From positions 7,596 through 71,595 of the forward strand of contig JAQURD010000010.1 in NCBI GenBank assembly GCA_028749115.1: a DNA stretch of 64,000 bases. Reading direction: 5' to 3'. The notes beneath the pieces were generated by a model. The model was not told the DNA's origin, made no database searches, and worked only from the letters and a program-made list of their open reading frames with translations. Below are positions 1 through 48,740 of this stretch, in pieces. Positions within the stretch are counted from its first letter, which is position 1, and every line of letters starts with the position of its first letter. The DNA is from Acidobacteriota bacterium (GTDB lineage: Bacteria; Acidobacteriota; Aminicenantia; Aminicenantales; Saccharicenantaceae). A program made the position numbers and the translations under genes.

Positions 1-2129
1 GTTATTCGGTTTTTAAACTAGAGGCTGAGAAGGAAGAGATCACGGTGGTCGGTATCTTCCCGCCCCTGTCTCCTGGTGAACATCTTAAGCTTTCCGGTCA
101 TTTCGAAGTAAATCAGAAATTTGGCCGTCAATTTCAGATGGAGTCCTTCAGCCTGGCTTTACCTCATTCGACGGTTGGACTGGAAAAATTCCTGGCTTCG
201 GGGCTAATTAAAGGGCTGGGCCCGGTTCTGGCTAAAAGAATTGTAAAAAAGTTTGGTGTGGAAACGGCCAGGATTCTGGATGCTCAGCCAGAAAAATTGA
301 CCGGGGTAGAAGGCATCGGTCAGAAAAAACTCGCTGAGATTTTGAAATCCTGGGAAGAGCACCGGGAGATAAGAGATCTGATGATTTTTCTTCAGGAACA
401 CGGGATATCGGCGACCATGGCTTATAAGATTTACCGGACTTATGGCCGGTCTTCTTTTGATATTCTTAAAAAGAATCCTTATCAACTCTGCCTTGATATC
501 TGGGGGATCGGCTTTAAAACGGCCGATCAGATTGCACTTAAACTCGGCCTGCCGCCAGATTCTCAGGACCGGGTGAAGGCTTTTATACTTTATCTTCTCG
601 AAAAGGATAATGATGAAGGCCACGTTTTTTCTCTAAAGACAGAAGTGGTCAGAAGATGTCAGGAAGAACTGGAGACAGCAAGCGAGCTGGCCGAATTGGC
701 TCTATCGGCTCTGGCCCGGGATCAAGCTCTCGTTCAGGAAAAGACAGCTTCTGGCATTTGTCTTTACCGGCCTTTTTTCTATCAGGCTGAAGAAGAAGTA
801 GCCAGAAGAATGGCCGGTCTGGCCAGTCAGGATTGCCCGGTGCCTGACTTTGATGTTGATAGAAAAATTGAAGAGATAGAAAAAAAGTCCGGCCTGGTCT
901 TTTCGGCTCTCCAGAAAAAGGCTATTAAGAGCAGCCTGCAGAAAAAAATTCTGATTATTACCGGCGGCCCGGGGACCGGTAAGACGACCATCATCCGGGC
1001 GGTGGTTGATATTTTTGATAGCTGGCTAAAAAAAGTTCTGCTGGCCGCTCCCACCGGAAGGGCAGCTAAAAGATTATCAGAGGCTACTGGCCGGGAAGCT
1101 AAGACCATTCATCGCCTGCTTGAATATCGGCCAAAAGAAAGCCGGTTCAAAAGGGGGCTCCATCATCCTCTGCGAGCTGATGCCCTGATTGTTGACGAAG
1201 TCTCTATGGTTGATTTGCCTTTAATGTATAATTTGCTGCAGGCGCTGTCGCCTGATATGAGGTTAATCCTGGTCGGAGATCAGGATCAGCTGCCATCAGT
1301 TGGCCCTGGTAATCTTTTGAGGGATCTGATTGGTTCCGGCCTGGTCGAAGTTATCAAGCTCAACGAAATTTTCCGGCAGGCCAAAGAAAGCCTGATTGTG
1401 ATCAATGCTCACCGCATCAACCAGGGGCAGCCTCTTCTGTATCCACCCCGGGGAGACCCCCAGTCTGACTTTTATTTTCTTCATCAGGAAAATGAGGAAA
1501 AAGTCTTGGGTTTAATTTTAAAATTGTGCCGTTACAACCTGCCGCGGCGTCTCGGAATTAGCCCGCTATCCACCCAAATTCAGGTCATCAGTCCCATGTA
1601 CCGTGGCCTGGCTGGCGTTGACCGGTTAAATATTGAGTTGCAGAAGGCTCTAAATGCAAACTCAGCTTCCTTCAGATTAGGGTCGAAAGAATTCCGGACA
1701 GGTGATAAAGTCATGCAGACCAGAAACAATTATGAGAAAGAAATTTTCAACGGGGATGTGGGGACAGTGGCTCAGATTGATCCCCGCCGGCTGAGCCTGC
1801 TGGTTGATTTTGATGGACGAATTCTCTCCTATGAAAAAGATGAATTGTCTGAAATTGTTCTGGCCTATGCTGTTTCTGTCCACAAAGCTCAGGGCAATGA
1901 ATATCAGGCAGTCGTTATGCCGCTTTTGACCCAGCATTATATTATGCTTCAGAGGAATCTCTTTTATACCGCTCTAACCAGAGCCAAAAAATTGAGTATC
2001 ATCATAGGCTCTTACCGGGCCATGCATATAGCGATTAAAAATAACCGTCCGGTAAACAGGAATTGCTGCCTGAAAGAAAAAATGCAGAGCCTGGTCAAAG
2101 CCCCGCCGGCAAATTTTAGTTTGTATTAA
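1..2129 (+). CDS. recD2: ATP-dependent RecD2-like DNA helicase (5' partial; frame open to window start)
   Basis: Walker A GGPGTGKTT; HhH motifs (GIGFKTADQIA); motif-rich C-terminus typical of the RecD/TraA superfamily. No in-frame stop upstream of the GTG at 45, so the gene likely begins before the window. Confidence 0.8.
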   Translation, partial: YSVFKLEAEKEEITVVGIFPPLSPGEHLKLSGHFEVNQKFGRQFQMESFSLALPHSTVGLEKFLASGLIKGLGPVLAKRIVKKFGVETARILDAQPEKLTGVEGIGQKKLAEILKSWEEHREIRDLMIFLQEHGISATMAYKIYRTYGRSSFDILKKNPYQLCLDIWGIGFKTADQIALKLGLPPDSQDRVKAFILYLLEKDNDEGHVFSLKTEVVRRCQEELETASELAELALSALARDQALVQEKTASGICLYRPFFYQAEEEVARRMAGLASQDCPVPDFDVDRKIEEIEKKSGLVFSALQKKAIKSSLQKKILIITGGPGTGKTTIIRAVVDIFDSWLKKVLLAAPTGRAAKRLSEATGREAKTIHRLLEYRPKESRFKRGLHHPLRADALIVDEVSMVDLPLMYNLLQALSPDMRLILVGDQDQLPSVGPGNLLRDLIGSGLVEVIKLNEIFRQAKESLIVINAHRINQGQPLLYPPRGDPQSDFYFLHQENEEKVLGLILKLCRYNLPRRLGISPLSTQIQVISPMYRGLAGVDRLNIELQKALNANSASFRLGSKEFRTGDKVMQTRNNYEKEIFNGDVGTVAQIDPRRLSLLVDFDGRILSYEKDELSEIVLAYAVSVHKAQGNEYQAVVMPLLTQHYIMLQRNLFYTALTRAKKLSIIIGSYRAMHIAIKNNRPVNRNCCLKEKMQSLVKAPPANFSLY

Positions 2130-32799: not shown

Positions 32800-32845
32800 T
32801 TCAAACCTCCTTAAAATATATCCTTAAAATGTAAAATGTCTCTGG

Positions 32846-33913: not shown

Positions 33914-34779
33914 ATGATCACCTTTTTAATTTCATATTCGAGAATATCTGTGGCTCCCATTTTTTTGAGGAGAGGAATCAATTTTGTCGCCTCTTTTTTG
34001 CGGACAGCAACCTTGACGGCATAGCCTTTTTCGTCATAGAGAAGGGAAACGGTTGGAGCTCTCATGCAGGGTAAGACAGGAACAATTTCCTCCAGTTTAT
34101 CTTTGGGAAGATTCATCTCCAGCATGACCCGTTCCCGGGCATTAAGAACAGATTCAAAAAGCATGTTAAGCTCCCCGATTTTTTCTTTTTTCCAGGTGTC
34201 CTGAAGCGACACCGGATTGGCAATAAAGCGGGTCGAAGAGGAAAGAATTCTATCTATTATCTTGAGCCCGTTTTCTTTAAGAGTTTTGCCGGTAGAGGTA
34301 TTATCAATAATCAGATCAGCATCCTGAGGCGGGAAAGCTTCAGTCGCACCATAGGTTCTGATGAAGACATAGTCAAAAGTTTCCTTCTCTAAATATTTTC
34401 TCGAAATGTTTTCATATTCGGAAGCGACGATGAGGCGCCTGGTTCTTAGCTGTTGTTTGGTAATGGCCGTTTGAGCCGCCGAGACAATTTCCACCGGGTC
34501 AAAACCGGTGTCCAGGATTTCTTCGACGCGGCTGCCCGTTTCTACTATCCAGTCATAGCCGGTAAAACCAGCGTCATGAGAGCCTATCTCCACCAGTTGA
34601 GCAATATTCTGCGGTTTCATCAACTTGGCTTCAATTTGCGGGTCGCCTGTGCGAGGATAATAAGCACGGTCATCTACTTCGAGAAAGAGGCCAGCTTCAA
34701 GAAGAAGATTGGCCACGGCCGGGAAAATCTTACCCTTGGGTATTAATAGTTTTAATTTTTGATTAACCCTATCTGCCAA
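33910..34779 (-). CDS. hisG: ATP phosphoribosyltransferase, long form; probable TTG start at 34779
   Basis: LKLLIPKGK... HisG N-terminus. SD AGGAGG lies 5 nt upstream of TTG 34779. The track's GTG 34854 would add a non-conserved 25-aa extension. Confidence 0.8.
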   Translation of the reverse strand: MADRVNQKLKLLIPKGKIFPAVANLLLEAGLFLEVDDRAYYPRTGDPQIEAKLMKPQNIAQLVEIGSHDAGFTGYDWIVETGSRVEEILDTGFDPVEIVSAAQTAITKQQLRTRRLIVASEYENISRKYLEKETFDYVFIRTYGATEAFPPQDADLIIDNTSTGKTLKENGLKIIDRILSSSTRFIANPVSLQDTWKKEKIGELNMLFESVLNARERVMLEMNLPKDKLEEIVPVLPCMRAPTVSLLYDEKGYAVKVAVRKKEATKLIPLLKKMGATDILEYEIKKVII

Positions 34780-35589
34780 CTTAACCTCCTTTTTCGTCTC
34801 CTGATAAGGACAAAAAGACAGAAAGACAGGAATATTTAAATCCGGATTTTCCACTCATCGAATTCCAGGGCTGAAATTAAGGTGAGGCCGGACAAAAACG
34901 AGCGGCAGAATTATTCACTCATCCTTAAATCGTCCAGGAAAGAGATGAGGGAAAAAGGAAGGTTAGGTTCAATGCAGACAGGTATTGGTGAGACAATACT
35001 TGATGTAATATTTATTTTTGGTCTGCATAGCAGGATGATATTAGCAGCCTTTGATAGTGCTGTCAAGCTTTCGACGGCTCTTTGTTATTTACAGTTGAAA
35101 AGTGAACTGTTAATGGAGCATTCCATCTATAGGAGTAATAAATGGAAAGGACACACGAGCATGTTGGCCCAGAAATCTCTTTTGCCTTAGTGAAAGAAGA
35201 ACTGTCAATTTTTACCGGCGTATAGAGTTCTACAACCATCAAATTCCTCTCCTGAAGTCCCCATCGTGAGCAAGTGGATATCCATTTAGTCTCTGACCTT
35301 AAATGTGGCTTACTTGAACTTCTGCCTCTGGTGGAATAACCAGTTCATTAACCCTGTTACCTGACCTTATCAGACTTTCCGAGAGTCCACTTTTCAACTA
35401 TTGCTAACAATCCTGTACATACTATTGACAAGCTTGATAGAATAAATTATAAGAAAATCGGAACATGAGGGGAAAAGCAAAGAAATGCAGTTATCAGAGA
35501 GGCCAAAGGAAACTGCAAACACAGAGCCTTAATTTGTTTGGTAGTATTAAAATTCTATATAGAAATAACAAAGATTAAAGGGGGGTAAA

Positions 35590-36723: not shown

Positions 36724-36964
36724 TGGCTATGTCTTGGAATCTATTCATGCTGATTGTTATTCTTTAGATTGAGACGGCAAGGTGCATCCTTCTATTCTGG
36801 GTCATGGGTTATTGAGGGTATCTAATTAGCTAAGTAAGAAAGGGATACTAGTTTCAGGGGGGAGGAGTATGCTCAATTCGGCAGAGGCGTAATCTGGAAA
36901 CAGTTAAGAAGAGGTTGAAGGTACTAAAGGAGAAAGCAGCGAAAGGAGGCCTAGTCCATATACT

Positions 36965-37495
36965 GAGAGGCAGCTTCAGTCCTTAGAGAATTTGAGAGGG
37001 AGCGAGAGGAAAGTCTGGAAGAGATTGAGACTTACCATCCTGGGTATCTAATAGCCCAGGACACTTACTTTGTGGACTAGATATTAAGAGTGCGTGGCGA
37101 ATTTATCAGCAGACTGTTCTTGATACTTACTCCAGTGTAGCTTTCGCTAAGGTTTACACAGCTAAGGTGCCATTGACGGCGGCTGATCTGTTGAATGACC
37201 GCGTTCTTTTGTTTTTTAGAGATCAGGATTTGACGGTGCTGTGCGTCCTGACTGACAGAGAGACAGAATACTGCGGGGTAGCAGATAAACATCCTTTTGA
37301 AAGAGTTTTATAAAGTTGTCTTTCACTAGAAGATCTATACTATGCTGGATGAGTTACAGAAGGACCTTGACGCCAGCTTGAAGATATATAATAATCAGCG
37401 CACGCATCAAGGGAAACGGTGCCAGAGTCGGACACCGATGGAAACGTTTATTGCTGGAATAGAGCTCGATAGACAAATAATTTAGCCCGGGAATT
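36965..37495 (+). pseudogene. degraded DDE (rve-core) transposase remnant, IS481-like
   Basis: Recognisable ...IETYHPGYLIAQDTYFVD then a frameshift, ...RIYQQTVLDTYSSVAFAKVYTAKVPLTAADLLNDRV...LTDRETEYCG then a deletion of the DDE core, then ...KIYTMLDELQKDLDASLKIYNNQRTHQGKRCQSRTPMETF with an internal TAG. Multiple frames and stops show it is non-functional. Confidence 0.6.
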
Positions 37496-37628: not shown

Positions 37629-38660
37629 ATGAACAAAATATTTCCAATAAATGTTAATCTCGTATTTCAGCCTCTTAAGGTTATGTTTACAACATTTAAG
37701 ATAGTTTTTACTTGGTTATTGTGGCAATTGATGTGTATGTTTTGTTTTTTTTTCATACTGGTGTCATATAAGACATCTCTTTTGATGGCAAGCATATTAG
37801 CGTTTATTTTAACTCTGATTGTTTTAATTAAGATAGCAATTCACGAATACGGACATCTAGCCGTTGCGATTAGTGAAAATAAAGGATTGGTTTCATTAAA
37901 CCTCAGAAGAGGAGGGCCTTTAGGTTTCACTGTTTGCTATTCATATTGTCCACCCTTAAATCTTTCCAGCCGGGCGGCATTCTATATGAGCGGTCCGGCT
38001 CTTTCTCTTATTTTTGATCCGGTACTATTTTGCTTGGGAGCGCTTCTTTTAAGCGAGACTATGCTTAGGCCAGGATTGTTGACGTGGAGCAATAAGTTAA
38101 TTATATTAGGTATAATTTTTGTTGTGCCGATTTTTCAAATCATACTGTCTTATGTGATATCAAAGCCATCACAGGAGGGAGGAGACTACAGCAGGTTAAA
38201 AATGCTTAATCTTATGGGTTTACCGCCAGTAAAATTTAACGATTTAATCTCGGTTTTAATAAGCATTATCAATTATACGAGAGGGAAAGGAACAATCAAT
38301 ATAAAAAAGTTGTTAGAATTGAAACCTGTTTTTAATTTTCCTTATAATATCGAAGATCAAAAAACCATAAAAATTAATTTAGATAGTACAAATCATTTTT
38401 ATATTAGGGGAAAGGAAGCGGAAGTTGGAAGGAAAATAACTGGTACACATTCTATAAGCGAAATAATAAAAGACAGCGGTAGTGACAATGAAATATTAGA
38501 AATAATAATAAAATTTTATATGTGTTATATTGTGTCAATACCGCCTATATATTCAAAAATATCACCAGAGGATTTAATTCCATTCAAGATTGACTTTATT
38601 GAATTCTATAAGAAAATGATAGCAAAATATTTTAGTTCGAGTTTCTATTTTTCTGGATGA
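37629..38660 (+). CDS. polytopic membrane protein with TM-embedded HExxH, a putative intramembrane zinc metalloprotease (S2P/M50-like)
   Basis: LIKIAIHEYGHLAVAIS inside a hydrophobic helix; many TM segments; AT-rich codon usage like the rest of the island. Confidence 0.4.
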   Translation: MNKIFPINVNLVFQPLKVMFTTFKIVFTWLLWQLMCMFCFFFILVSYKTSLLMASILAFILTLIVLIKIAIHEYGHLAVAISENKGLVSLNLRRGGPLGFTVCYSYCPPLNLSSRAAFYMSGPALSLIFDPVLFCLGALLLSETMLRPGLLTWSNKLIILGIIFVVPIFQIILSYVISKPSQEGGDYSRLKMLNLMGLPPVKFNDLISVLISIINYTRGKGTINIKKLLELKPVFNFPYNIEDQKTIKINLDSTNHFYIRGKEAEVGRKITGTHSISEIIKDSGSDNEILEIIIKFYMCYIVSIPPIYSKISPEDLIPFKIDFIEFYKKMIAKYFSSSFYFSG

Positions 38661-39006
38661 CAATAAAGTTGCTAGCTGTTAAGCTTTCTGTTAATTTCCG
38701 GAGCCAAATTATTTTGTCTGGCCAAGTACTGAGATACCCTATGAAAACATTTATGTTGTTTTCTAACGAGAATTTGCTGAGCTGGTGTATAAGAAATAGT
38801 CAGCAGACTTTCCACCTTTACAGAGTGATAATAATTATCGGATGGCCTTTTTATATTGTTTGGGGCTAAAGAGATGGTTTATGCGAAGTTTGATTTTTAA
38901 GAAAGGAAAAACCGTATTAAAACAAAAAAAAAGAGATATCAATTCAATTGACAATAAACCGTAGGAATATTAATTTTATTATCTTAATGCAAAGAAGGAG
39001 GCTGAT

Positions 39007-39201
39007 ATGGACGAAAGAGAAGAGCTAATATATGAATCACCTTTAGCAATTACAGCAAATGATGTGTTTCTATTTTCAGTCGAAGCGGGAAGTGAGGCTG
39101 CGGCAGTGGCCGTTGTGGCTGTCGTGGCGGTAGTGGCTGTTGTTGCTGTTGTTGCCGTTGTGGCTGTTGTTGCCACTGTTGCAGTACCGGCGGCATACTA
39201 G
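39007..39201 (+). CDS. candidate RiPP precursor peptide: 33-aa leader plus (V-V-A)n hydrophobic repeat core
   Basis: MDEREELIYESPLAITANDVFLFSVEAGSEAAA | VAVVAVVAVVAVVAVVAVVAVVATVAVPAAY. SD AAGGAGG 5 nt upstream. Immediately upstream of an RRE-rSAM gene on the same strand; hairpin terminator just downstream. Confidence 0.7.
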   Translation: MDEREELIYESPLAITANDVFLFSVEAGSEAAAVAVVAVVAVVAVVAVVAVVAVVATVAVPAAY

Positions 39202-39216
39202 AAAAAATCTTTTTTT

Positions 39217-39240
39217 CTGCACTCAGCAGAGTGCAGTTTA
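39217..39240 (+). terminator. putative intrinsic terminator/attenuator hairpin after the precursor gene
   Basis: CTGCACTC-agca-GAGTGCAG 8-bp stem followed by TTTA. The T-tail is weak, suggesting a partial terminator. Confidence 0.4.
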
Positions 39241-39364
39241 GCTGGGCTAAGATAAGCCTCGCCTTTTTAGGAAATATGTCGGAGATCATGTGCATTAGAA
39301 CGTGTCTGGAATTTTTAGAGTAAATAGAAGGAAGGGCAGTTTCTTTTTGAATAAGAAGTAAAAA

Positions 39365-41107
39365 ATGTTTGATGACACGAAATTGGGTTTGGGCAATAAT
39401 GTCAGTGGCAATTTTTTGGCATTAACTCCAGTTCCCTTACGAGAAGCATCTTGGTATTTTGATGAAAAAACAGGTCGTGTTGTTATTTTAGTTTACCCTA
39501 AAAGGCTAATATTAGGAAAAGCTCAGTCTATGATTTGGAAACATGTTGATGGATTCAATACTGTTAATGATATAGCCAGTATTTTACATCATGATATGGA
39601 TATTAATGTTATCAGGGCAGCATTTAAAGAATTTGAATACAAAAACATAGCAAGAATGAAAGATATTAAAAATTCTTTTTGGGGTGATATCTCCGATAAT
39701 AATAAAAAGATAGACATAATTGAAGATCCAATGGGTTCTGATACTGGTGCTGATTTGATTTTGATAGTGCCTCCACAGTCTATAAGGTGTTTTTCGCTTG
39801 GAGCGATCAGCCTAGCACCTCCATTAGGATTGATGTATATCGCTTCAAATTTAATTTTAAATGGATATAAGGTTAAGATATTAGATCTAAGTGACAAGAC
39901 AAAACTTTCAAAAGATAGTTTTCATGATTATCTTGACAAAAACAGGCCAAAAGCTGTTGGAATTACTTGTTGGTCTGAATTTATGGAAAATGCTTTAGAA
40001 TTAGCCAAAACAACCAAAGAATATAATCCTGAAATAGCTGTCATCTTAGGCGGTCCACATGTTACCTTCATGGCTGACGAATGTTTTAAAGAAAATGATT
40101 ATGTTGACGTAGTTTGCCGGCATGAAGGTGAATACAGTATGATAGAGTTAATGGATTTCTATAAATGGAAAAAGGGTTCTTTGCAAGATATTTTAGGCAT
40201 AACATATCGTGAGCAGAAAACAGGTTCTGTCGTACGTAATCGAAGTAGAGCCTTTATAAAAGAATTAGATGAATTACCATTTCCAGCCCGCCATCTGATA
40301 GATTTCTCAAAGTATACAAAGCCTATGTTTATGATCACTAGCAGAGGCTGCACAGGTAAATGTAAATTTTGTGCAGGGACTACAATGGGGAGACGATATA
40401 GATTTAGACATCCTGATAAGGTTGCACAAGAAATAGAAGAGATAATTAGAGATTATAAACCAGAGGAGATTTATATTGTAGATGATGCCTTTACTATTAT
40501 TCCTGATCGTGCAAAAGAGATCTGCGCTTACTTAAAAAACTCGGATATAAGATGGTTCTGTGAATCACGAGTTGATGCTGTAAACGAAGAATTACTAAGG
40601 ATATTTTATGAATCTGGCTGTAGATATATTCAATTCGGAATAGAATCTGGCTCTCAACAGATTTTAGATGCTATCAAAAAGGAAACGACTTTAACAGAGG
40701 TCGAAAATGCCGTTAAATGTGCAACTGAAGCTGGCATCAAAGTAGCTTGTTCTTTCATAATAGGACACTTCGATGATACAGATGAAACAATTCAAGAAAC
40801 AATTGCACTAATGAAATATTTAAAAGACAAATATAATGTGGCTTTATTTTGTGGCCCGAATGTCATATTTCCTGGCACGTATCAGTATGCACATAGAGAG
40901 TCTTTAGGATTAGACTTTCAACTAAAATCTTGGAGTGCCAATATAATGGGGCATACAGTTACGCCAACTAAGTACCTTTCATATGAAAAACTTAGACGTT
41001 ATGTATTTGAAGCAATTGAATTATGTATGCCGACAGTCATTGATCTTGCTAAAGAGAAGAATCGTGAATTATATGGTAGTGAATGGCCAGATCGATTGGG
41101 TAGGTAA
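39365..41107 (+). CDS. B12-binding-domain radical SAM enzyme with N-terminal PqqD-like RiPP recognition element (RRE)
   Basis: N-terminal ~100 aa PqqD-like (IWKHVDGFNTVNDIASIL); cobalamin-binding-type Rossmann domain; radical SAM CTGKCKFC (CxxxCxxC) within ITSRGCTGKCKFCAG. Confidence 0.85.
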   Translation: MFDDTKLGLGNNVSGNFLALTPVPLREASWYFDEKTGRVVILVYPKRLILGKAQSMIWKHVDGFNTVNDIASILHHDMDINVIRAAFKEFEYKNIARMKDIKNSFWGDISDNNKKIDIIEDPMGSDTGADLILIVPPQSIRCFSLGAISLAPPLGLMYIASNLILNGYKVKILDLSDKTKLSKDSFHDYLDKNRPKAVGITCWSEFMENALELAKTTKEYNPEIAVILGGPHVTFMADECFKENDYVDVVCRHEGEYSMIELMDFYKWKKGSLQDILGITYREQKTGSVVRNRSRAFIKELDELPFPARHLIDFSKYTKPMFMITSRGCTGKCKFCAGTTMGRRYRFRHPDKVAQEIEEIIRDYKPEEIYIVDDAFTIIPDRAKEICAYLKNSDIRWFCESRVDAVNEELLRIFYESGCRYIQFGIESGSQQILDAIKKETTLTEVENAVKCATEAGIKVACSFIIGHFDDTDETIQETIALMKYLKDKYNVALFCGPNVIFPGTYQYAHRESLGLDFQLKSWSANIMGHTVTPTKYLSYEKLRRYVFEAIELCMPTVIDLAKEKNRELYGSEWPDRLGR

Positions 41108-41113
41108 GACGGT

Positions 41114-42035
41114 TTATGCTAATCCCCTGAGGATGGATAAGGCTCCTGGCAAGAGTGTCAGACGAAGATGTATTTTATAAATTTCAAAAAATGACAGAGA
41201 GAAGGAATAGTTTATAGACGGGAGCGTTTCCCATGTGCTGGGCAGCGCGATAAGACTCAAAATGACCTGATTAGGTTGGTCTACGTTCACCCCCTCCAGT
41301 AGATAAGGGTAAAGCTTATGACCAGGAGAGGAAAAACCTATCCTCCTATGGGGATAGATGGCCTGAAGTCCTAAACGTCTGAAAAGCTTCCTCACCCGCT
41401 TGGCATTTACCCCATAGCCCTGAGCCCTTAACCAGGCGGTCATCCTCCTTACCCCATAAAACGGTGTTCTGGTAAACTCTTCATCTATGAGCCTCATCAA
41501 CTCAAGATTACAGTCATCATTGACCACTGAGCTGTAATAGTATGAGGACCTCAGAAGATTTAATAGCTCACACTGCCGGACCACCGCTATCTCCTCGTTA
41601 TTCCTCTCCACCAACTGCCTCTTCTCCTCTACTGAAGCTGCCGAAATTTTTTTTTAAGCCAATCGTTCTCTACCTTGAGCTGCCCTATCTGCTGGTAAAG
41701 CTCCGCCTCCTTCTGGTCTCGTTCCTCATCTGTTCTCTTCCTCCGGTCCGAAAACAACTCAGGTAATGCATTCAGCAGATGTTCCTTCCATTGACTAACC
41801 TGGTTAGGATGAACCCCATACTCACTGGCTACCTGGGCAACAGTCTTCTCCCCTTTGACCGCCTCCAGCGCCACCCTGGCCTTAAAGGCCGCTTCATACT
41901 GTCGTCTTTTCATACTGGCCATTTTACCATACCTCCTCCAGAGTTATGGCAGGTCATTTCCCACCTTATTGCCCTGTCCAGTTTTTGGGGAGAACCTCAC
42001 CTAGTAGATCCTTGACAACTGTTCATTTGCTCATA
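41114..42035 (-). mobile_element. truncated IS3-family element (orfA intact, orfB 3'-truncated)
   Basis: orfA 41629..41922 (HTH, MASMKRRQYEAAFKARVALEAV...). A10 slippery run at ~41646-41656 typical of an IS3 -1 frameshift. orfB' 41114..41614 (...RRMTAWLRAQGYGVNAKRVRKLFRRLGL...) lacks the DDE integrase core. Putative left end TGAGCAAATGAAC (revcomp of 42021-42033). Confidence 0.65.
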
Positions 42036-42100: not shown

Positions 42101-44224
42101 CTATAGAACTTTTTCACCTCTCTCTAATTTAAAGAAAACAAACCATACAAAAATTGCTACTATTGCCAATATTAGATCTAACGAGACAAGCCTCTTTAGC
42201 CATACTAAGGTTTCAGTTGAGTCAATAAGTTGTGCCAGAATACCCCTCTGAGCAATGCAGGCTGGGTTTAGCTTGAACAATATAGATGTATCAGGAATAT
42301 TTACCGCTCCTGAAATAGCCACAGGTAAGATTAGAAATAACTCTAGAACTGCTAATGTTATGCTTACTCCGGATGTTATGGAAGGGAAAATAATAATCGA
42401 TAGACAGCTAATAGATAATCCTAAAAGAACACATATTAATAAAAGTTTGCAGATCAGAAATATACTTATTTCAAAGCCACTAATAAAACTTATACCTATC
42501 ATCAGGGAGGCAACTACTATAGAGGCAAAAATAGCTGTTAACATGATACTTGTTAGAAAATCGAAATGGCTTAATGGAGTCAATCGTAAGGCATCTAATG
42601 TTTCCATCTGTTTCTCTTTAGCCATAACAGAAGATAGGCCCATACTGATAACCACTATTTGTATGACAATAAAAATCGTGAATAGAAAAAAACTTAAATT
42701 CATTCCTTTTATTTTCTTAAATATTAATGAGTATTTTCCTTTTTCTCCAGCTTCTTCTAAGATTATTCTTCTTATTATATTAGCTACAATAAAAGACTGT
42801 GGTTGCCTGGCGTCGTCCATAATTATTTCGATAAAGGGACTATTATCCCGGGAAGATATTAAGATTGCACTTAAGACTAGTTTTTTCTGAATCAGGGCTC
42901 TGGCCTCATTAACACTTTTCACCTGATGATAAGAATAAGGAGTTTTTTTAGTTAAGTTTATTAACACCTGGTTTGATAACTCATCATTAGTAGAATATAA
43001 TGCAACTTTGCTTCTCTCAAGATAAGGTAACTGCATATTTATTAATAAAACTATAGTTATAAATAGGAAAAAGAGCACAAGCACTAATATTATCTTAAAA
43101 CTTAGTAATTCCTTTATATTCTTCGAAACCATAGTTAGAACTCTATTTCTATATTTGAAATTTAACCTAACTGTTGGTATCCGGTGAAATTTTGGAATGA
43201 TCCTTTTGCTTGTAGCTGAGAAGGCACCTAAAATAAATTTAAATAGAAAGGCAGTGACTATTGTTCCAAAAAAGAAAAAAAACACAATATTCCAGCTCAG
43301 GCTTGATACATTTAAGAGTATTTGCTGAGATGCAGAAGATGGAAGGATGTAATTATATTTTGCAATCAATTCTAAACGATCAACAAACACGGAAGGTGTA
43401 ATAAAAATAATTGCTGCTATCGATGAATAAGTATATACAGAAATTGCAGTTCTGGCCGACATAGCAATTTCTAATCCTAGGTAAGCATAAAATATACTTA
43501 AGATTAAGAAAATCACTAAAGCTTTTAATTTATAGCTGAATGGTTCTTGTAAAAAGGATAATGATATAGAGATAACAGGTAATATTATTAATGCATAAAA
43601 TATCAATTTAGAGATTATTATTTGGATTTTCCTAGCACCACTCATGTTTATAGCATCCAGTAGTCCCTTATCTTTCTCGTAGATAATATTGTGAACAAAC
43701 ATATTCAGGCCTAAAAGTGGCAGCATGACCTGCAATAAGATTAGAAAAATACGTGTTGGGATTCTTACGCTCCTTAGGTTACTGATATAAATATTTATCG
43801 CTTTGCTTTTATCTTTAGAAATAGCCTCTGATATCAATGCCGATGATAGTTCTTGAACTATAGGATTATTATCACTGATAATTATTTGAAGGGCTGGTAA
43901 TCCGGATTCTCCTTTAATAAAATCTATTGCTGCTATTACTTGCCCTTTCATTATTAATTGTTCTGCTTTTGAAAAATCGCTTATTTCTATTATTTTAAAG
44001 GCGGGATATCGTTCTATTTCCTCAGCTATGGTCTTATGGACAGCTTGTTTAGATTGAACAATGGCTAGTGGGAATTTGTTTCCCTTAACATTGCCAAAAT
44101 AACTAAAAATTAAAAGGATAGATAAAGGAGACAATATTATAATAAAATTAAACTTATTTTTTAAAAATAATTTAATTTCTTTTTGTATTAAGAACAAAAT
44201 ATTCTTCATTATGTCTTTCACCAA
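42101..44224 (-). CDS. ABC-2 type transporter permease (large, two-module)
   Basis: Two blocks of ~6 TM helices separated by extracytoplasmic segments; the 53-nt overlap with the upstream ATPase gene suggests translational coupling. Confidence 0.7.
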   Translation of the reverse strand: MVKDIMKNILFLIQKEIKLFLKNKFNFIIILSPLSILLIFSYFGNVKGNKFPLAIVQSKQAVHKTIAEEIERYPAFKIIEISDFSKAEQLIMKGQVIAAIDFIKGESGLPALQIIISDNNPIVQELSSALISEAISKDKSKAINIYISNLRSVRIPTRIFLILLQVMLPLLGLNMFVHNIIYEKDKGLLDAINMSGARKIQIIISKLIFYALIILPVISISLSFLQEPFSYKLKALVIFLILSIFYAYLGLEIAMSARTAISVYTYSSIAAIIFITPSVFVDRLELIAKYNYILPSSASQQILLNVSSLSWNIVFFFFFGTIVTAFLFKFILGAFSATSKRIIPKFHRIPTVRLNFKYRNRVLTMVSKNIKELLSFKIILVLVLFFLFITIVLLINMQLPYLERSKVALYSTNDELSNQVLINLTKKTPYSYHQVKSVNEARALIQKKLVLSAILISSRDNSPFIEIIMDDARQPQSFIVANIIRRIILEEAGEKGKYSLIFKKIKGMNLSFFLFTIFIVIQIVVISMGLSSVMAKEKQMETLDALRLTPLSHFDFLTSIMLTAIFASIVVASLMIGISFISGFEISIFLICKLLLICVLLGLSISCLSIIIFPSITSGVSITLAVLELFLILPVAISGAVNIPDTSILFKLNPACIAQRGILAQLIDSTETLVWLKRLVSLDLILAIVAIFVWFVFFKLERGEKVL

Positions 44225-45128
44225 TTATCTTCATAAAAGCTTCTTGTAGAGAAGGTCTGACTTTTTCAATTGTTTTAATCTCGACGCCACTTTCCTTTAT
44301 GATGTCATTTAAAGACCCAATAAAAGAGACAATATCTGTCGAGACTTTATTAAAGGTTAAGACATCGCAGCTCTCATTTTCTAAAACACTAAATGAGCTA
44401 AACTGTTTAGGATTGATCCTGGCACTAAAACATACTCTATATAAGTTTTCAAGTGAAGCTTCAGAACATAATTGTTCAGTAGATCCACTAGCGGTTATTT
44501 TCCCATGATGAAGGATGGCTATCCTATTACACAATATTTCTGCCTCGTCAAGATAATGGGTGGTAATAAATATAGTTTTGCCCCGGTTATTCAAATTTGA
44601 TATCAATCTTCTTACAAATTGATCAGTTTGAGGATCTAGGCCAACCGTCGGTTCATCGAGGAAAAGAACTTCAGGATCGTGGATCAACGCTCTTCCTATA
44701 AGAAGTTTTTGTTTCATTCCTTTTGAATATTTATATACGTTTTCGTTTGCTCTGTCTTCCAATTTCATCAGTTTAAGCATATTTTCAGCAGATTGTTTGG
44801 GCTGAGGCAATCCATATAGCTGCGCAAACAAATATAGATTATAAAAACCTGAAAGGTTTTCATAAAGATTCTGATTTTCGAAAACTACACCGATAATTCT
44901 TTTTATACGTTTCTGGTATTTTTTTAGGTCAAGATTTCTAATCAGAATTTGCCCACTACTTGGCTCAATTAATCCACATAGCATTTTTAATATTGTGCTC
45001 TTACCTGCTCCATTTGGACCAAGCAACCCAAAAATTTCTCCTTCTTTCACACTTATACTTATATTGTCTACTGCTATCAATTCCCCATATTTCTTAGTGA
45101 TAGCCTTCATTTCAATTGCAGATTGCAT
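44172..45128 (-). CDS. ABC transporter ATP-binding protein
   Basis: Walker A GPNGAGKST, signature LSGGMKQK-like (YSKGMKQKLLIGRAL), Walker B LFLDEPT, H-loop. Confidence 0.9.
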   Translation of the reverse strand: MQSAIEMKAITKKYGELIAVDNISISVKEGEIFGLLGPNGAGKSTILKMLCGLIEPSSGQILIRNLDLKKYQKRIKRIIGVVFENQNLYENLSGFYNLYLFAQLYGLPQPKQSAENMLKLMKLEDRANENVYKYSKGMKQKLLIGRALIHDPEVLFLDEPTVGLDPQTDQFVRRLISNLNNRGKTIFITTHYLDEAEILCNRIAILHHGKITASGSTEQLCSEASLENLYRVCFSARINPKQFSSFSVLENESCDVLTFNKVSTDIVSFIGSLNDIIKESGVEIKTIEKVRPSLQEAFMKIIGERHNEEYFVLNTKRN

Positions 45129-45145: not shown

Positions 45146-46492
45146 CTACTTACCTAGAGTCCACATTACTTCTTCTATAACATTCTTGTAACAGTCACAA
45201 CAAGGGTTATTTTCTGTCAATGAACCAAACTCCAGAGCCAAAACTCTACATCCGCCGCCGCAATAATATCTATACTCACAAGCTGAACAGTTCTTAAATT
45301 TATCAACTGTAACCTCTTGATAAATCTCAGAAGCTTTTTTATTTATTTCTGAAAAGTCTTCAACGTAAGTATTTCCAATTTTATATTTATGATCGTGTAA
45401 TAAAGGACATGGATATACTGAACCGTCTGGACTTATACTCAATGTATTTATGCCTAATCCGCAGTTTAGGTATTTATGAGTATTAAATGGAGAATACACC
45501 ATATCGCCAGCAGTCTTAAGCGTAATTTGAACTTTCTTTTTCTTTAGAAGAAATGAATAGAATAGTTCCCTGCTTTGTTGAAAAACGGAAATGAAATTAC
45601 ATCTTTTTGAAAAATCATTTGTTTCAGTTTCAATAGCCGGTATCAAGCACTTTATTTCTAAAGTACATTTACTATCATTTATAGGTTCAAGTATATTTGA
45701 GAGCTTAGATATATTTTGCTCATTTACCAGGGCGGAAATCAATATGCTTTTTAATCCAGCCTTCTTGAGCATTTTGACATTTTCGATAGCCAAATCCACT
45801 GATGAAGAATTTTCTATTTCAATATTGATTTGAATACTTTTAAAACAAGATACTAATATGTTGGCCATATCAATCCCAATAGGAGCTGAGTCTAAAATAA
45901 GATTTAGAGGATTGGTGGCTATTTTCATACAGTCAATTAAATGTTCTTTTTGTAATGTTTCTAAATCGGAGGATATTAATAACTGGGTTAATTGATAATT
46001 ATTTAACTGGTGAAATAGCCTAGCTAACTCGTCAGATGTCATAATATGTTCTGATTCTTCCGAATCGTTGCATGCATAGCCATATTGACATTGACGATAT
46101 GATAATTTTTTTAAATGGATCCATACAAATTTCAAATCAACAATACCTGGCATCGGCGCTGTTTTATCGCCAATTATTCGAGCGTCTTTTGCCTTTTCTA
46201 AAAATGTTCTTACATCTTCTTCAATCAATCGTGCAGGAACATCCCAGCACTTAGCTATTTTATCAACTATTTCTGTAAATAGAGGATTTTCAAAATAAGA
46301 TTTGATTATGTCCATTCCAACACGGTTAGATCTCATCCAACCCATATGCTTCCCGTTAACTATTAGGTACTCATTTCCTTTCTTTTTAATATTGAGGTCA
46401 GAAGATAAATTAAAATTAAGTTTTTCAATTTTAGGTTTACCTTTTAATTGGTTAGGACTCTCCATATGCTTATTCTCCTTCTCTTGAATCAA
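45146..46492 (-). CDS. RRE-containing SPASM-domain radical-SAM-like peptide maturase (non-canonical cluster motif)
   Basis: N-terminal PqqD-like RRE (YLIVNGKHMGWMRSNRVGMDIIKSYFENPLF...). C-terminal SPASM Cys array (CGLGINTLSISPDGSVYPC ... CSACEYRYYCGGGC ... CC). Where CxxxCxxC is expected, the sequence reads SYRQCQYGYACNDS (Cx5C only). Confidence 0.7.
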   Translation of the reverse strand: MIQEKENKHMESPNQLKGKPKIEKLNFNLSSDLNIKKKGNEYLIVNGKHMGWMRSNRVGMDIIKSYFENPLFTEIVDKIAKCWDVPARLIEEDVRTFLEKAKDARIIGDKTAPMPGIVDLKFVWIHLKKLSYRQCQYGYACNDSEESEHIMTSDELARLFHQLNNYQLTQLLISSDLETLQKEHLIDCMKIATNPLNLILDSAPIGIDMANILVSCFKSIQINIEIENSSSVDLAIENVKMLKKAGLKSILISALVNEQNISKLSNILEPINDSKCTLEIKCLIPAIETETNDFSKRCNFISVFQQSRELFYSFLLKKKKVQITLKTAGDMVYSPFNTHKYLNCGLGINTLSISPDGSVYPCPLLHDHKYKIGNTYVEDFSEINKKASEIYQEVTVDKFKNCSACEYRYYCGGGCRVLALEFGSLTENNPCCDCYKNVIEEVMWTLGK

Positions 46493-47918: not shown

Positions 47919-48632
47919 GTGGCTAGCCAAATTTCTATTATATCTGAAGATAAAAGTTTCCTTAGTTGGATATCAAAAGCTGTTAATGGGTCAAATTTAA
48001 ATCTTAAGATCAATGAAGGCATTAATAACGGCAATGCCAAGCCCGCGCTGATTCTTCTATCTTGTAACTATCTTTGCCAATATGGGAAATGTTCAAATAA
48101 ATTCTTTACCGCTGCTCAGTTTCCTGAGATTCCTCTTGCTGTAGCCCGACCAATTCATTTGAAAAACTTTAAAGAAGGACAGAGTGATTTTTTGATTTCG
48201 TTTTTAAGAGGCGAGAATGTGACACATATAAAAACACTATCGGAAAAATTAGCAACATGTGCCTATTCAAGTAATCCATCAATTTCTAAAATCGAAACTC
48301 TCTTTAAAATCATTCAGGTTCAGAAACAAATTGTCGAATCTAAAGGTAAGGTTTTTGAAGTCTCGGAGCTATCGAGAAATGTGGGTCTTTCGGTTTCTTG
48401 GTTTTCAACGAAATTTAAAGAAATGTCGGGGATTCCGTTGAAAACATATGCAAACAAGATAAGGCTTTGTCATTCCCTTTGGGAACTTATCTCCACTTAT
48501 AGTCCTATCAAATCAATTGCTATTGATTTCGGATATAAACCACTATCTTTTAGCATGAGATTTCATGAAAAAATAGGAATATGGCCTTCTGAGGTGAGAA
48601 GAAGAAGACGAAGTGGTCAACACCGTGTCTAG
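47919..48632 (+). CDS. AraC-family transcriptional regulator (GTG start)
   Basis: C-terminal AraC-type dual HTH (ELSRNVGLSVSWFSTKFKEMSGIPLKTYANKIRLCHSLWEL...IAIDFGYKPLSFSMRFHEKIG). SD AAGGGGG upstream. AT-rich like the island. Confidence 0.7.
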   Translation: MASQISIISEDKSFLSWISKAVNGSNLNLKINEGINNGNAKPALILLSCNYLCQYGKCSNKFFTAAQFPEIPLAVARPIHLKNFKEGQSDFLISFLRGENVTHIKTLSEKLATCAYSSNPSISKIETLFKIIQVQKQIVESKGKVFEVSELSRNVGLSVSWFSTKFKEMSGIPLKTYANKIRLCHSLWELISTYSPIKSIAIDFGYKPLSFSMRFHEKIGIWPSEVRRRRRSGQHRV

Positions 48633-48740
48633 CCCAGTTTTAAGGTGTATTTTTATCATTATACGGCTGCATATATAGACAAGTCGGTATACAGCAATCA
48701 GCTAATTGACAATCAGGAGGGTTCCTTTTATCTTAAAGGC

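What the first reader, a model, noticed from the sequence alone, without database searches (positions are those of the whole stretch)
39007..39201. Candidate precursor peptide with a (Val-Val-Ala)n repeat core: possible new RiPP family
The 64-aa ORF has a strong SD, an acidic 33-aa leader, and a 31-aa core made almost entirely of VVA triplets (eight VVA/TVA units), ending VPAAY. It sits directly upstream of an RRE-fused B12-radical SAM gene and is followed by a hairpin. The core has no Cys, Trp or Lys, so the usual SPASM crosslink chemistries do not obviously apply. B12-rSAM C-methylation of Val/Ala (as in proteusin/polytheonamide maturation) would give a tert-Leu-rich, extremely hydrophobic peptide. 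I know of no characterised RiPP with this core.
Basis: partly seen in the sequence, partly recalled or inferred. Interest (0 to 1): 0.9.

Follow-up and report, generated by a model that had tools for sequence, protein, structure and literature searches.

The report
Valine-repeat precursor peptide beside B12 enzyme
A real 64-residue gene encodes a peptide whose tail is almost pure Val-Val-Ala repeats; it is the most extreme member of an uncurated, widespread family of small greasy peptides that sit beside vitamin-B12 radical enzymes, which probably add methyl groups to them.

Summary
ORF 39007-39201(+) has a strong SD, an acidic 33-aa leader and a core of seven VVA units plus one TVA. It lies 163 nt upstream of a 580-aa B12-binding radical SAM enzyme. 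That enzyme's N-terminus is a PqqD-type RRE (hhalign 97%; independent HMM E 6e-8).

All variation between repeat units is at wobble positions, so this is a coding repeat under selection.

The peptide does fit an uncurated family found here. Its members are small same-strand ORFs with an N-terminal YxxPxΦ motif (the lasso-type RRE recognition motif) and an Ile/Val/Ala-rich core. They sit next to RRE-plus-B12-rSAM genes in Zixibacteria, WOR-3, Ignavibacteria, Chloroflexota, Clostridia and Theionarchaea. RRE presence predicts such an ORF (13/21 versus 1/70 loci, p = 1e-9).

The most likely function is leader-guided, iterative C-methylation of Val. Characterised analogues are clavusporin MpcBC, PoyC and the RRE-containing ApyD, but the window system fails every membership test for those families. 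Site and type of chemistry are untested.

Verdict: a new variant of a known kind.

The parts
38995..39001 (+). Shine-Dalgarno AAGGAGG, 5 nt before the ATG
   Evidence: Read directly. The antisense ORF 38979-39176 starts at a GTG with no SD-like sequence.
39007..39201 (+). Precursor peptide gene (64 aa plus stop)
   Evidence: It is the only ORF in the 64-kb window that combines YxxP in the first 16 residues with a 12/12 aliphatic segment. This exact sequence is not in the 15-billion-protein collection, so no gene with this product is on record.
39031..39042 (+). Leader motif Y9-E-S-P12 (followed by L-A-I): putative RRE recognition sequence
   Evidence: Y and P are the only invariant columns across 14 precursors from independent loci. 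YxxP is the characterised lasso-type RRE recognition motif (PMC12710340). Background in window small ORFs: Y..P 1.3%, Y..P.Phi 0.5%.
39106..39198 (+). Core, residues 34-64: VA-(VVA)7-TVA-VPAAY. The seven VVA units are 39112-39174.
   Evidence: All variation between units is at wobble positions (0/0/37).
39217..39270 (+). Two hairpins after the stop codon, the second followed by a U-run: possible attenuator between precursor and enzyme genes
   Evidence: MFE -22.2 kcal/mol, z = -1.95: modest.
39365..41107 (+). RRE-fused class-B (B12-binding) radical SAM enzyme, 580 aa. RRE about residues 22-100 (39428-39664), B12-binding 151-261, rSAM 323-482, CxxxCxxC at 40349-40372.
   Evidence: No NCBIfam model reaches its cut-off (best HpnJ 189, ApyD 178.5, BchE 171 bits). 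Nearest structures by Foldseek are AprD4, MgmA/QCMT, TsrM, CysS, OxsB and TokK.
37629..38660 (+). Polytopic membrane protein with HExxH (IHEYGH): candidate leader peptidase (weak)
   Evidence: Pfam Peptidase_M50 E = 0.003, 17 bits, below the 27.2 cut-off, covering the HExxH helix only. No homologue in related loci. A suspected C-terminal RRE was not supported (hhalign 2.5%).
41114..41922 (-). IS3-family remnant (OrfA plus truncated OrfB) splitting the cluster
   Evidence: Pfam HTH_Tnp_1 and HTH_21.
42101..44224 (-). ABC-2 type permease (707 aa): probable exporter
   Evidence: Pfam ABC2_membrane_3, 4e-18.
44172..45128 (-). ABC transporter ATPase (DrrA-like)
   Evidence: Its best match among related loci is in L207 (47% identity), the locus with one of the nearest rSAM homologues.
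45146..46492 (-). PqqD(RRE)-SPASM protein with a degenerate radical-SAM core
   Evidence: Pfam PqqD plus SPASM but no Radical_SAM hit. Alignment A5 shows CNL[KR]CxYC replaced by SYRQCQYGY and GGEPL replaced by SSDLET, while the SPASM cysteines are invariant. Best matches are the SPASM maturases of L004 and L207.
47919..48632 (+). AraC-type regulator (membership in the cluster uncertain)
   Evidence: Pfam HTH_18. L212 also has an HTH_18 gene upstream of its precursor.

Best explanation
The ORF is the precursor of a ribosomally made, post-translationally modified peptide. Its acidic leader carries a Y9-x-x-P12-L motif that is bound by the PqqD-like RRE at the N-terminus of the adjacent class-B (B12-binding) radical SAM enzyme. 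Tethered in this way, the enzyme works along the (VVA)n core and repeatedly transfers methyl groups from methylcobalamin to unactivated side-chain carbons. The most likely site is C-beta of Val, giving tert-leucine, possibly also Thr57 or Ala, which would produce a +14 Da ladder of up to about 17 or more steps. The leader is then removed, perhaps by the upstream HExxH membrane protein, and the very hydrophobic product of about 30 residues is exported by the ABC-2 transporter. There it would act in or on membranes or as a surfactant. Shown: the gene, the SD, selection on the coding repeat, the RRE, the B12-rSAM domains, and the family-wide co-occurrence of YxxP/aliphatic peptides with RRE plus B12-rSAM. 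Inferred: leader-RRE binding, methylation as the chemistry, its site, the protease, the export and the role of the product.
For: (1) ORF anatomy and SD. (2) All 37 inter-unit differences are at wobble positions. (3) RRE: hhalign 97.2%, E 4e-11; window-independent RRE HMM E 5.8e-8. (4) Intact B12-binding and rSAM domains with CxxxCxxC; class-B fold. (5) Both nearest RiPP-context rSAM homologues carry YxxP/aliphatic precursors: L004 MYIVPTVL...TITITITIVG and L207 (CTG start with AGGAGG) YKKPEF...VVIVGAVIVSAV. More distant RRE-fused homologues do too: L001, L002, L003, L012, L041, L062; and with discrete RREs L019, L020, L023, L037, L211, L212. (6) Y and P of YxxP are the only invariant columns in 14 precursors that were picked by core composition, not by leader. 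(7) Association across 91 loci: RRE+ 13/21 with such an ORF versus RRE- 1/70, Fisher p = 1.3e-9. (8) YxxP is a validated RRE recognition sequence (PMC12710340). (9) Chemistry precedents: MpcBC beta-methylates Val/Ile/Thr/Pro in hydrophobic cores (PMC10849626); PoyC C-beta-methylates Val/Ile (PMC11285071); ApyD is an RRE-containing B12-rSAM C-beta-methylase and the top RiPP-type NCBIfam hit. (10) L211 has at least 7 tandem B12-rSAM paralogues for a core of about 20 aa, which fits multiple site-specific alkylations. (11) The ABC ATPase and SPASM genes are syntenic with L207/L004.
Against: The peptide has no detectable sequence homologue. A family HMM built without it scores it at -3.7 bits under default composition correction. 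It ranks at the top of 1,611 window ORFs, second only to its own nested start, only with the correction off (13.1 bits), and that score comes mainly from core composition. So the family link rests on synteny, a 4-residue motif and composition. Its leader is 6-8 residues longer at the N-terminus than most members and lacks the Pro that usually precedes the core. The two characterised Val/Ile C-beta-methylases (PoyC, MpcB) have Cx7Cx2C; this enzyme has Cx3Cx2C and reaches no curated family cut-off. The nearest solved peptide-modifying relative, MgmA/QCMT, methylates C-alpha, and the top structural hit, AprD4, is annotated as a radical SAM 1,2-diol dehydratase rather than a methyltransferase. Homologues at 40-43% identity sit in non-RiPP contexts. 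The cluster is broken by IS remnants and holds a degenerate SPASM gene. The N-terminal domain is modelled at low confidence.
Confidence: 0.58

Rival explanations
1. Same precursor-enzyme pair, different chemistry. The B12-rSAM abstracts the C-alpha hydrogen, as MCR glutamine methylase does. It would then install alpha-methyl residues (alpha-methyl-Val, or Aib from Ala), giving a ribosomal peptaibol-like helix, or it would epimerise residues to D-forms, or catalyse some other class-B reaction.
For: The nearest solved peptide-modifying relative by sequence and fold is MgmA/QCMT (9ccb, E 3e-14). QCMT abstracts C-alpha-H, makes (S)-2-methylglutamine, is promiscuous across residue classes and epimerises when alkylation fails (PMC13469106). 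The enzyme shares the canonical Cx3Cx2C rather than the Cx7Cx2C of PoyC/MpcB. Class-B rSAMs also perform non-methylation reactions (Discussion of PMC11117315).
Against: NCBIfam scores rank the QCMT model (101 bits) below ApyD (178.5) and the PoyB/C-type rSAM_ocin_1 model (123.5). Family cores are enriched in beta-branched residues (Ile, Val, Thr), which are the substrates of known C-beta-methylases. No direct evidence favours either site.
Confidence: 0.2
2. Relic cluster. The peptide and enzyme once formed a RiPP pathway, but the locus is decaying and no mature product is made. The long perfect repeat would be a slippage-expanded remnant.
For: IS remnants lie at about 36.9-37.5 kb, 41.1-41.9 kb and 47.3-47.6 kb. 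The PqqD-SPASM gene has lost its radical-SAM cysteines and SAM motif. The transporter genes are separated from the rSAM and inverted relative to the L207 arrangement. The peptide is a singleton.
Against: The rSAM, ABC permease and ATPase ORFs are full length with all motifs. The repeat shows 8 synonymous departures and none at codon positions 1-2, which argues for continued purifying selection rather than recent slippage or neutral decay. SD and hairpins are intact. Loss of the SPASM catalytic site fits a Cys-free core that no longer needs it.
Confidence: 0.12
3. Not a precursor at all: a small single-pass membrane protein, a spurious ORF, or the antisense (TTA)n ORF 38979-39176 is the real product, and the rSAM acts on another substrate.
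For: The core could form a transmembrane helix. The antisense frame is preserved equally well by the wobble pattern. The family HMM does not recognise the peptide under default scoring. Close rSAM homologues exist in non-RiPP contexts.
Against: The antisense ORF has a GTG start and no SD, and it scores no better against the family HMM (rank 203 or 174). The + ORF has a strong SD, the YxxP motif (0.5-1.3% background), the same strand as the RRE-bearing enzyme and a position directly upstream of it. RRE domains exist to bind precursor peptides, and RRE presence predicts such ORFs (p = 1e-9).
Confidence: 0.08

Closest known systems
Clavusporins (Mpc system: MpcA precursor, B12-rSAM MpcB plus DUF5825 MpcC; Streptomyces)
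   Same: A ribosomal peptide with a hydrophobic Val/Ile/Thr-rich core that is iteratively C-beta-methylated by a B12-rSAM in a leader-dependent way. 'Short' Mpc precursors have runs or alternations of Val/Ile. The product is an extremely hydrophobic surfactant (PMC10849626).
   Different: MpcB has CX7CX2C and needs a DUF5825 partner. Its cluster has an MFS transporter and an S9 peptidase, and all members are Actinobacteria. Here the enzyme has CX3CX2C and a fused PqqD-type RRE. There is no DUF5825, S9 or MFS gene, the transporter is ABC-2 type, the leader carries YxxP, and the record is labelled Acidobacteriota.
Polytheonamide/proteusin C-methyltransferases PoyB and PoyC
   Same: B12-rSAMs that methylate C-beta of Val and Ile many times in one long hydrophobic ribosomal peptide, giving tert-leucine-type residues (PMC11285071).
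   Different: PoyC has Cx7Cx2C. Proteusins use long NHLP/Nif11-type leaders and rSAM epimerases. The window peptide hits no leader family, the enzyme scores 123.5 bits against TIGR03975 (cut-off 281.85), and no epimerase is present.
ApyD (aminopyruvatide pathway)
   Same: An RRE-containing cobalamin-dependent rSAM that C-beta-methylates a RiPP precursor. It is the best-scoring RiPP-type NCBIfam model for the window enzyme.
   Different: ApyD performs a single methylation of one Tyr and works with MNIO, P450 and methyltransferase partners. The score is 178.5 bits against a cut-off of 750, and the precursor is unrelated.
Cyclopropylglycine synthases TvgB/TigE with TVGG/TIGSVS repeat precursors
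   Same: The precursor core is a tandem repeat of a short Val/Ile-containing motif that is modified repeatedly by a radical SAM enzyme (PMC10878394).
   Different: Those enzymes are rSAM-SPASM proteins with a strictly conserved GYW motif, not B12 enzymes. The window's only SPASM protein lacks GYW and lacks the radical-SAM cysteine triad.
Lasso peptide leader/RRE recognition (YxxP)
   Same: A YxxP motif near the leader N-terminus together with a PqqD-like RRE (PMC12710340).
   Different: No lasso cyclase or leader protease domains were found in the cluster proteins scanned. The core is incompatible with a lasso fold: there is no Gly/Ala/Ser/Cys-1 to Asp/Glu-7..9 ring pair.

Membership tests
YxxP-leader / aliphatic-core peptides next to RRE plus B12-rSAM (uncurated family delineated here) | Small (38-64 aa) same-strand ORF next to a B12-binding rSAM gene | tested here: met
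   The gene ends 163 nt upstream of the rSAM on the same strand. Family members lie 250-600 nt upstream.
YxxP-leader / aliphatic-core peptides next to RRE plus B12-rSAM (uncurated family delineated here) | Y-x-x-P-x-hydrophobic motif near the N-terminus | tested here: met
   Y9-E-S-P12-L-A-I. Y and P are invariant in 14 precursors. Background is 0.5-1.3%. The motif sits 6-8 residues further from Met1 than in most members.
YxxP-leader / aliphatic-core peptides next to RRE plus B12-rSAM (uncurated family delineated here) | Ile/Val/Ala-rich core | tested here: met
   The core is 12/12 aliphatic in every window of residues 31-60. It is the only tandem-repeat core in the family.
YxxP-leader / aliphatic-core peptides next to RRE plus B12-rSAM (uncurated family delineated here) | PqqD-type RRE, fused to the rSAM or encoded separately | tested here: met
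   hhalign 97.2%, E 4e-11. RRE HMM built without the window sequence: E 5.8e-8, residues 30-89. Pfam PqqD alone is sub-threshold (E 0.23).
YxxP-leader / aliphatic-core peptides next to RRE plus B12-rSAM (uncurated family delineated here) | Significant match to a profile built from the other members | tested here: inconclusive
   Default HMMER gives -3.7 bits (bias 16.8) and does not recognise it. With --nonull2 it ranks 2 of 1,611 window ORFs, behind only its own nested start (13.1 bits, E 0.006), and the score comes mostly from core composition.
Clavusporin (Mpc) family | B12-rSAM with CX7CX2C cluster motif | tested here: not met
   The window enzyme has C329-x3-C333-x2-C336. MpcB motif from PMC10849626.
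Clavusporin (Mpc) family | DUF5825 partner protein, S9 peptidase and MFS transporter in the cluster | tested here: not met
   Pfam scans of the larger ORFs from 35.5 to 50 kb show none of these. The transporter is ABC-2 type.
Clavusporin (Mpc) family | Hydrophobic Val/Ile/Thr/Pro-rich core with leader-dependent modification | tested here: inconclusive
   The core composition is met. Leader dependence and modification cannot be tested in silico.
Proteusins (PoyB/PoyC type) | NHLP/Nif11-type leader; rSAM matching TIGR03975 | tested here: not met
   No Pfam or NCBIfam hit for the peptide, even at E <= 10 for NCBIfam. TIGR03975 scores 123.5 bits against a cut-off of 281.85.
ApyD family (NF050148) | Score above the equivalog cut-off; MNIO/P450 partners | tested here: not met
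   178.5 bits against a cut-off of 750. No MNIO or P450 in the scanned ORFs. Only the shared architecture (RRE plus B12-rSAM) is met.
Radical SAM cyclopropyl synthases (TvgB/TigE) | rSAM-SPASM enzyme with a conserved GYW motif | tested here: not met
   The window SPASM protein has no GYW (sequence), lacks the CxxxCxxC triad, and its best PDB match is CteB, not TigE.
Class-B (cobalamin-dependent) radical SAM methyltransferases | N-terminal B12-binding domain plus rSAM domain with CxxxCxxC | tested here: met
   Pfam PF02310 2e-21 and PF04055 2e-26. Foldseek hits TsrM, CysS, TokK, OxsB and MgmA at E about 1e-18 to 1e-22.
Class-B (cobalamin-dependent) radical SAM methyltransferases | Actual cobalamin binding and methyl transfer | not testable with these tools
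   The top structural hit, AprD4, is annotated as a radical SAM 1,2-diol dehydratase, not a methyltransferase. Biochemistry is required.
Lasso peptides | Lasso cyclase and leader peptidase (B2) genes | tested here: not met
   No such domains in the cluster ORFs scanned. Only the YxxP/RRE recognition logic is shared.

The most novel reading that the evidence does not exclude
The YxxP-leader/aliphatic-core peptides with RRE plus B12-rSAM form a new, phylogenetically very broad RiPP class, found in anaerobic bacteria and in Theionarchaea, with up to at least 7 B12-rSAM paralogues per cluster. Its chemistry would differ from known C-beta-methylation. For example, processive C-alpha-methylation or epimerisation would turn (VVA)n into a ribosomal, peptaibol-like alpha,alpha-dialkyl helix. 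The window peptide would then be a natural homopolymer-like substrate for a processive alkylase.
Probability: 0.15. Interest if true: 0.9.

Novelty: new variant of a known kind. Interest (0 to 1): 0.62.

Why it matters
If the inference holds, this enzyme would convert a near-homopolymeric Val-Val-Ala tract into a chain rich in quaternary carbons (poly-tert-leucine-like). That would be one of the most hydrophobic genetically encoded peptides known, and a simple repetitive substrate for studying how a leader-tethered B12 radical enzyme moves along a peptide.

The peptide also led to an unannotated precursor family. All 21 protein clusters are labelled 'hypothetical', with no Pfam or NCBIfam model. 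The family links a lasso-type YxxP/RRE recognition system to B12-rSAM enzymes across at least six bacterial phyla and an archaeal lineage. This extends clavusporin- and polytheonamide-like chemistry well beyond Actinobacteria and sponge symbionts.

The family gives genome miners a simple search rule: RRE + B12-rSAM + YxxP + aliphatic core.

Tried and rejected
(1) My recollection that TvgB/TigE are B12 enzymes was wrong. They are rSAM-SPASM enzymes with a GYW motif, and the window SPASM protein fails that test.
(2) My recollection that ApyD methylates Asp was wrong. It makes beta-methyl-Tyr.
(3) Direct homology searches with the peptide found nothing: the word-indexed search, exhaustive phmmer, and Pfam/NCBIfam.
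All are generic GTN-rich microsatellite-like tracts, none has a YxxP leader, and none has a tblastn hit to the window rSAM or SPASM protein. The scan is not exhaustive.
(5) The codon-position test was meant to separate the strands. It excludes four frames and a non-coding repeat, but it cannot separate + (VVA)n from - (TTA)n, because both share wobble positions.
(6) A family HMM built without the window peptide gave no significant hit under default scoring. One search returned nothing for technical reasons and was re-run.
(7) The idea that the HExxH membrane protein carries a C-terminal RRE was rejected (hhalign 2.5% probability). No PDB or Pfam support beyond a weak M50 hit.
(8) The AlphaFold model is low-confidence over the N-terminal domain (pLDDT 32-71), so it was not used as RRE evidence.
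(9) Rfam gave no RNA family in the window, and the repeat RNA fold is not unusual (z = -1.17).
(10) The nearest rSAM homologue, P0002, and also P0008 and P0013, lie in non-RiPP or uninformative contexts.
(11) Eight literature searches found no description of this family. The library lacks most subscription-journal papers, so prior description cannot be excluded.
Full report
**1. Observation**

The ORF at 39007-39201(+) is exactly as described. It is 64 aa long, with AAGGAGG 5 nt before the ATG. The leader of 33 residues has 8 acidic and 1 basic residue. The core reads VA-(VVA)7-TVA-VPAAY, and the peptide has no Cys, Trp or Lys.

Tandem Repeats Finder reports a 9-nt unit with 7.2 copies at 82% identity. 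The units differ only at codon position 3: the pairwise differences by codon position are 0/0/37, which is 8 departures from the consensus, all at wobble positions. A non-coding microsatellite would not behave like this, so the repeat is coding and under purifying selection.

There is one caveat. The reverse complement of GTN-GTN-GCN, read one base out of register, is GCN-ACN-ACN. The antisense (TTA)n ORF (38979-39176) therefore shares the same wobble positions and is equally preserved. The wobble test cannot choose between the strands.

Other evidence does choose. The antisense ORF starts at a GTG with no SD. It runs antisense to a leader that carries a family-conserved motif (see section 3). 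It is also on the opposite strand to the enzyme gene.

Two hairpins follow the stop codon, and the second is followed by a U-run. They are only modestly better than shuffled sequence (z = -1.95). Rfam finds no RNA family anywhere in the window.

**2. Neighbourhood**

The downstream gene (39365-41107) has Pfam B12-binding and Radical_SAM domains and a canonical CxxxCxxC motif. No NCBIfam model reaches its cut-off. The best are HpnJ at 189 bits, ApyD at 178.5 and BchE at 171. An AlphaFold model is confident over the catalytic part. Its nearest PDB folds are class-B rSAM enzymes: AprD4, MgmA/QCMT, TsrM, CysS, OxsB and TokK.

The N-terminal ~100 residues are not recognised by Pfam alone (PqqD E = 0.23). 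More sensitive tests do recognise them:
- A profile of this domain plus the discrete ORFs of L207 and L004 matches a profile of PqqD-positive RREs at 97.2% probability, E = 4e-11.
- An RRE HMM built without the window sequence hits residues 30-89 at E = 5.8e-8. The only other hit among 260 window segments is the N-terminus of the PqqD-SPASM protein.

So 'RRE-fused B12-rSAM' is correct.

The identical rSAM protein is labelled as coming from an Acidobacteriota MAG.

Other genes in the cluster:
- a unique HExxH membrane protein (weak M50 hit)
- an ABC-2 permease and an ABC ATPase
- a PqqD-SPASM protein
- an AraC-type regulator
- three IS remnants

The ATPase and the SPASM protein find their best matches in L207 and L004, the loci that hold the nearest RiPP-context rSAM homologues. 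The minus-strand genes therefore belong to the same ancestral cluster, now split by an IS3 remnant.

**3. Comparative evidence**

The peptide itself has no homologue. The word-indexed search, exhaustive phmmer against 1.84 billion representatives, Pfam and NCBIfam all returned nothing. This exact sequence is also absent from the 15-billion-protein collection.

All are generic GTN-rich tracts, and none is near a relative of the window's rSAM or SPASM protein.

The contexts of rSAM homologues tell a different story. Small same-strand ORFs with aliphatic cores recur upstream of RRE-fused or RRE-accompanied B12-rSAMs:

| Locus | Source | Precursor |
|---|---|---|
| L001 | Zixibacteria | MSYKKPAYHQVEDEVTSFEAPILGIIILAIIIVTL... 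|
| L012 | WOR-3 | MAYKAPDY...IIVAIAIIAIAG... |
| L019/L020 | Ignavibacteria | MKYESPGMNY...PIAIAAVILIAAITAA |
| L023 | Chloroflexota | ...KVYESPTIEI...VVIGAVITGGAIVIAAVID |
| L037 | unclassified bacterial MAG | MAYEKPNYEK...AVAVVALIAAGA... |
| L041 | Alkalibaculum | MSYKKPCYEQVDNDKSANYITPNVVLVMVIALVPIVSRGCQVNG |
| L062 | Clostridium sp. KNHs205 | MEYNKPIYVEVNDGDDNVSTNGIPVVLILAAIIAGGVSGCTKD |
| L004 | metagenome | MYIVPTVL...TITITITIVG... |
| L207 | metagenome | YKKPEF...VVIVGAVIVSAV (CTG start, AGGAGG SD) |
| L211 | GCA_015665585.1; a near-identical precursor (P0137) is labelled Theionarchaea | three copies of MRYEKPRFVV...; at least 7 B12-rSAM paralogues |
| L212 | metagenome | MDYVSPSYIEE...GVLAIIAIIVVVAEVIANVG... 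|

These ORFs were picked by core composition. Even so, the only invariant columns in their alignment are the Y and P of an N-terminal YxxP motif. The window peptide has it as Y9-E-S-P12-L.

YxxP is the validated lasso-type recognition sequence for PqqD-like RREs (PMC12710340).

Across 91 non-redundant rSAM-homologue loci, 13 of 21 RRE-positive loci have a YxxP/aliphatic ORF, against 1 of 70 RRE-negative loci (Fisher p = 1.3e-9). Several of the 'negatives' are truncated contigs, and L207 was missed only because of its CTG start.

A profile search with the precursor alignment found 21 protein clusters. All are named 'hypothetical' and none has a Pfam domain.

**4. Limits of the family assignment**

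An HMM built from 18 other members does not recognise the window peptide under default composition correction (-3.7 bits). With the correction off, the peptide ranks at the top of 1,611 window ORFs, second only to its own nested start (13.1 bits, E = 0.006), and the score comes mostly from core composition.

The link therefore rests on three things: synteny with an RRE-B12-rSAM, the YxxPxΦ motif (0.5-1.3% background), and the aliphatic core.

The window peptide is also the outlier of the family. It is the longest member, it has an N-terminal extension of 6-8 residues, it lacks the Pro that usually precedes the core, and it is the only member with a tandem-repeat core.

**5. Mechanism**

The best-supported reading is this. 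The RRE binds the YxxP leader, and the class-B rSAM iteratively methylates unactivated carbons of the core. The most likely site is Val C-beta, which would give tert-leucine.

Three characterised precedents support this:
- MpcBC beta-methylates Val, Ile, Thr and Pro in hydrophobic clavusporin cores, and those products are surfactants (PMC10849626).
- PoyC C-beta-methylates Val and Ile in polytheonamides (PMC11285071).
- ApyD is an RRE-containing B12-rSAM that C-beta-methylates Tyr (PMC11117315).

The family's enrichment in beta-branched residues, and the clusters with several B12-rSAM paralogues (L004, L211, L212), fit multiple site-specific alkylations.

The regiochemistry is not settled. PoyC and MpcB both have Cx7Cx2C, whereas this enzyme has Cx3Cx2C. 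Its nearest solved peptide-modifying relative, MgmA/QCMT, abstracts C-alpha-H, makes 2-methylglutamine, is promiscuous and can epimerise (PMC13469106).

Leader removal by the HExxH protein and export by the ABC-2 system are inferences from position only.

**6. Comparison and membership**

The system works like clavusporin, polytheonamide and ApyD maturation, but it fails the defining tests of each family:
- It has no Cx7Cx2C motif, DUF5825 partner, S9 peptidase or MFS transporter.
- It has no NHLP/Nif11 leader and does not reach the TIGR03975 cut-off.
- It scores far below the ApyD cut-off and has no MNIO or P450 partner.
- It is not a TvgB/TigE cyclopropyl system. Those are rSAM-SPASM enzymes with a GYW motif, and the window's SPASM protein lacks both GYW and the radical-SAM cysteine triad.

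It is best filed as the most extreme member of an uncurated YxxP/aliphatic precursor family served by RRE plus B12-rSAM enzymes.

**7. Novelty and score**

RiPPs matured by B12-rSAM C-methyltransferases are a known kind, so this is not categorically new. However, I found no curated model or paper covering this precursor family (8 searches, with the caveat that the library lacks most subscription journals). The (VVA)7 core is unique.

I rate it a new variant of a known kind, with interest 0.62.

Noticed in passing
window 45146-46492 (-): The PqqD-plus-SPASM protein keeps all SPASM cysteines but has lost two of the three radical-SAM cluster cysteines (CNL[KR]CxYC becomes SYRQCQYGY) and the GGEPL SAM motif (becomes SSDLET), relative to its counterparts in L207, L004, L211, L003 and L002. 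It may be a pseudo-enzyme, an RRE scaffold or a decaying gene. This coincides with a Cys-free core in the window, whereas most relatives with an intact SPASM enzyme have Cys in their precursor.
   Followed up: partly
window ~36880-37490, 41114-41922 (-), 47343-47621 (+): Three IS/transposase remnants flank and split the cluster: integrase-like fragments, an IS3 OrfA plus truncated OrfB, and another IS3-type OrfA. The transporter and SPASM genes are inverted relative to the collinear L207 arrangement.
   Followed up: partly
L211 57-11302 (GCA_015665585.1, JADDYB010000005.1): A cluster with three tandem precursors (MRYEKPRFVV...YCVVFTGGATIVAAVFGKYC), a PqqD-rSAM-SPASM gene, a discrete PqqD gene and at least seven consecutive B12-rSAM paralogues that run off the end of the locus. 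A near-identical precursor (P0137) is labelled Theionarchaea archaeon.
   Followed up: partly
L002 5755-5886 and 3449-3994; L062 4733-4864: Two family precursors end in a lipobox-like ...GVSGC(S/T)K sequence, and the L002 cluster encodes a signal peptidase II (Peptidase_A8). L003 has an Rce1-like CPBP protease and the window has an HExxH membrane protein. Different intramembrane-type proteases seem to accompany these hydrophobic peptides.
   Followed up: no
L207 1822-1953: The precursor of one of the nearest rSAM homologues appears to start at a CTG codon directly after a stop codon, with AGGAGG 8 nt upstream. Standard ORF callers, including my first scan, missed it.
   Followed up: yes
window 7784-14128 (+): A single 2,114-aa ORF, by far the largest in the window. 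It was not examined.
   Followed up: no
window 48645-50258 (+): A 537-aa protein with two matched stretches of the ThyX (Thy1) domain, about twice the length of the 191-position Thy1 domain model. It may be an internally duplicated or fused flavin-dependent thymidylate synthase.
   Followed up: no
window 28317-34854 (-): A histidine-biosynthesis block, from histidinol dehydrogenase and a hisF/hisIE fusion through hisH-, hisB-, hisC- and hisG-like ORFs, lies directly upstream of the RiPP-like island. It marks the island's left boundary near 35 kb.
   Followed up: partly
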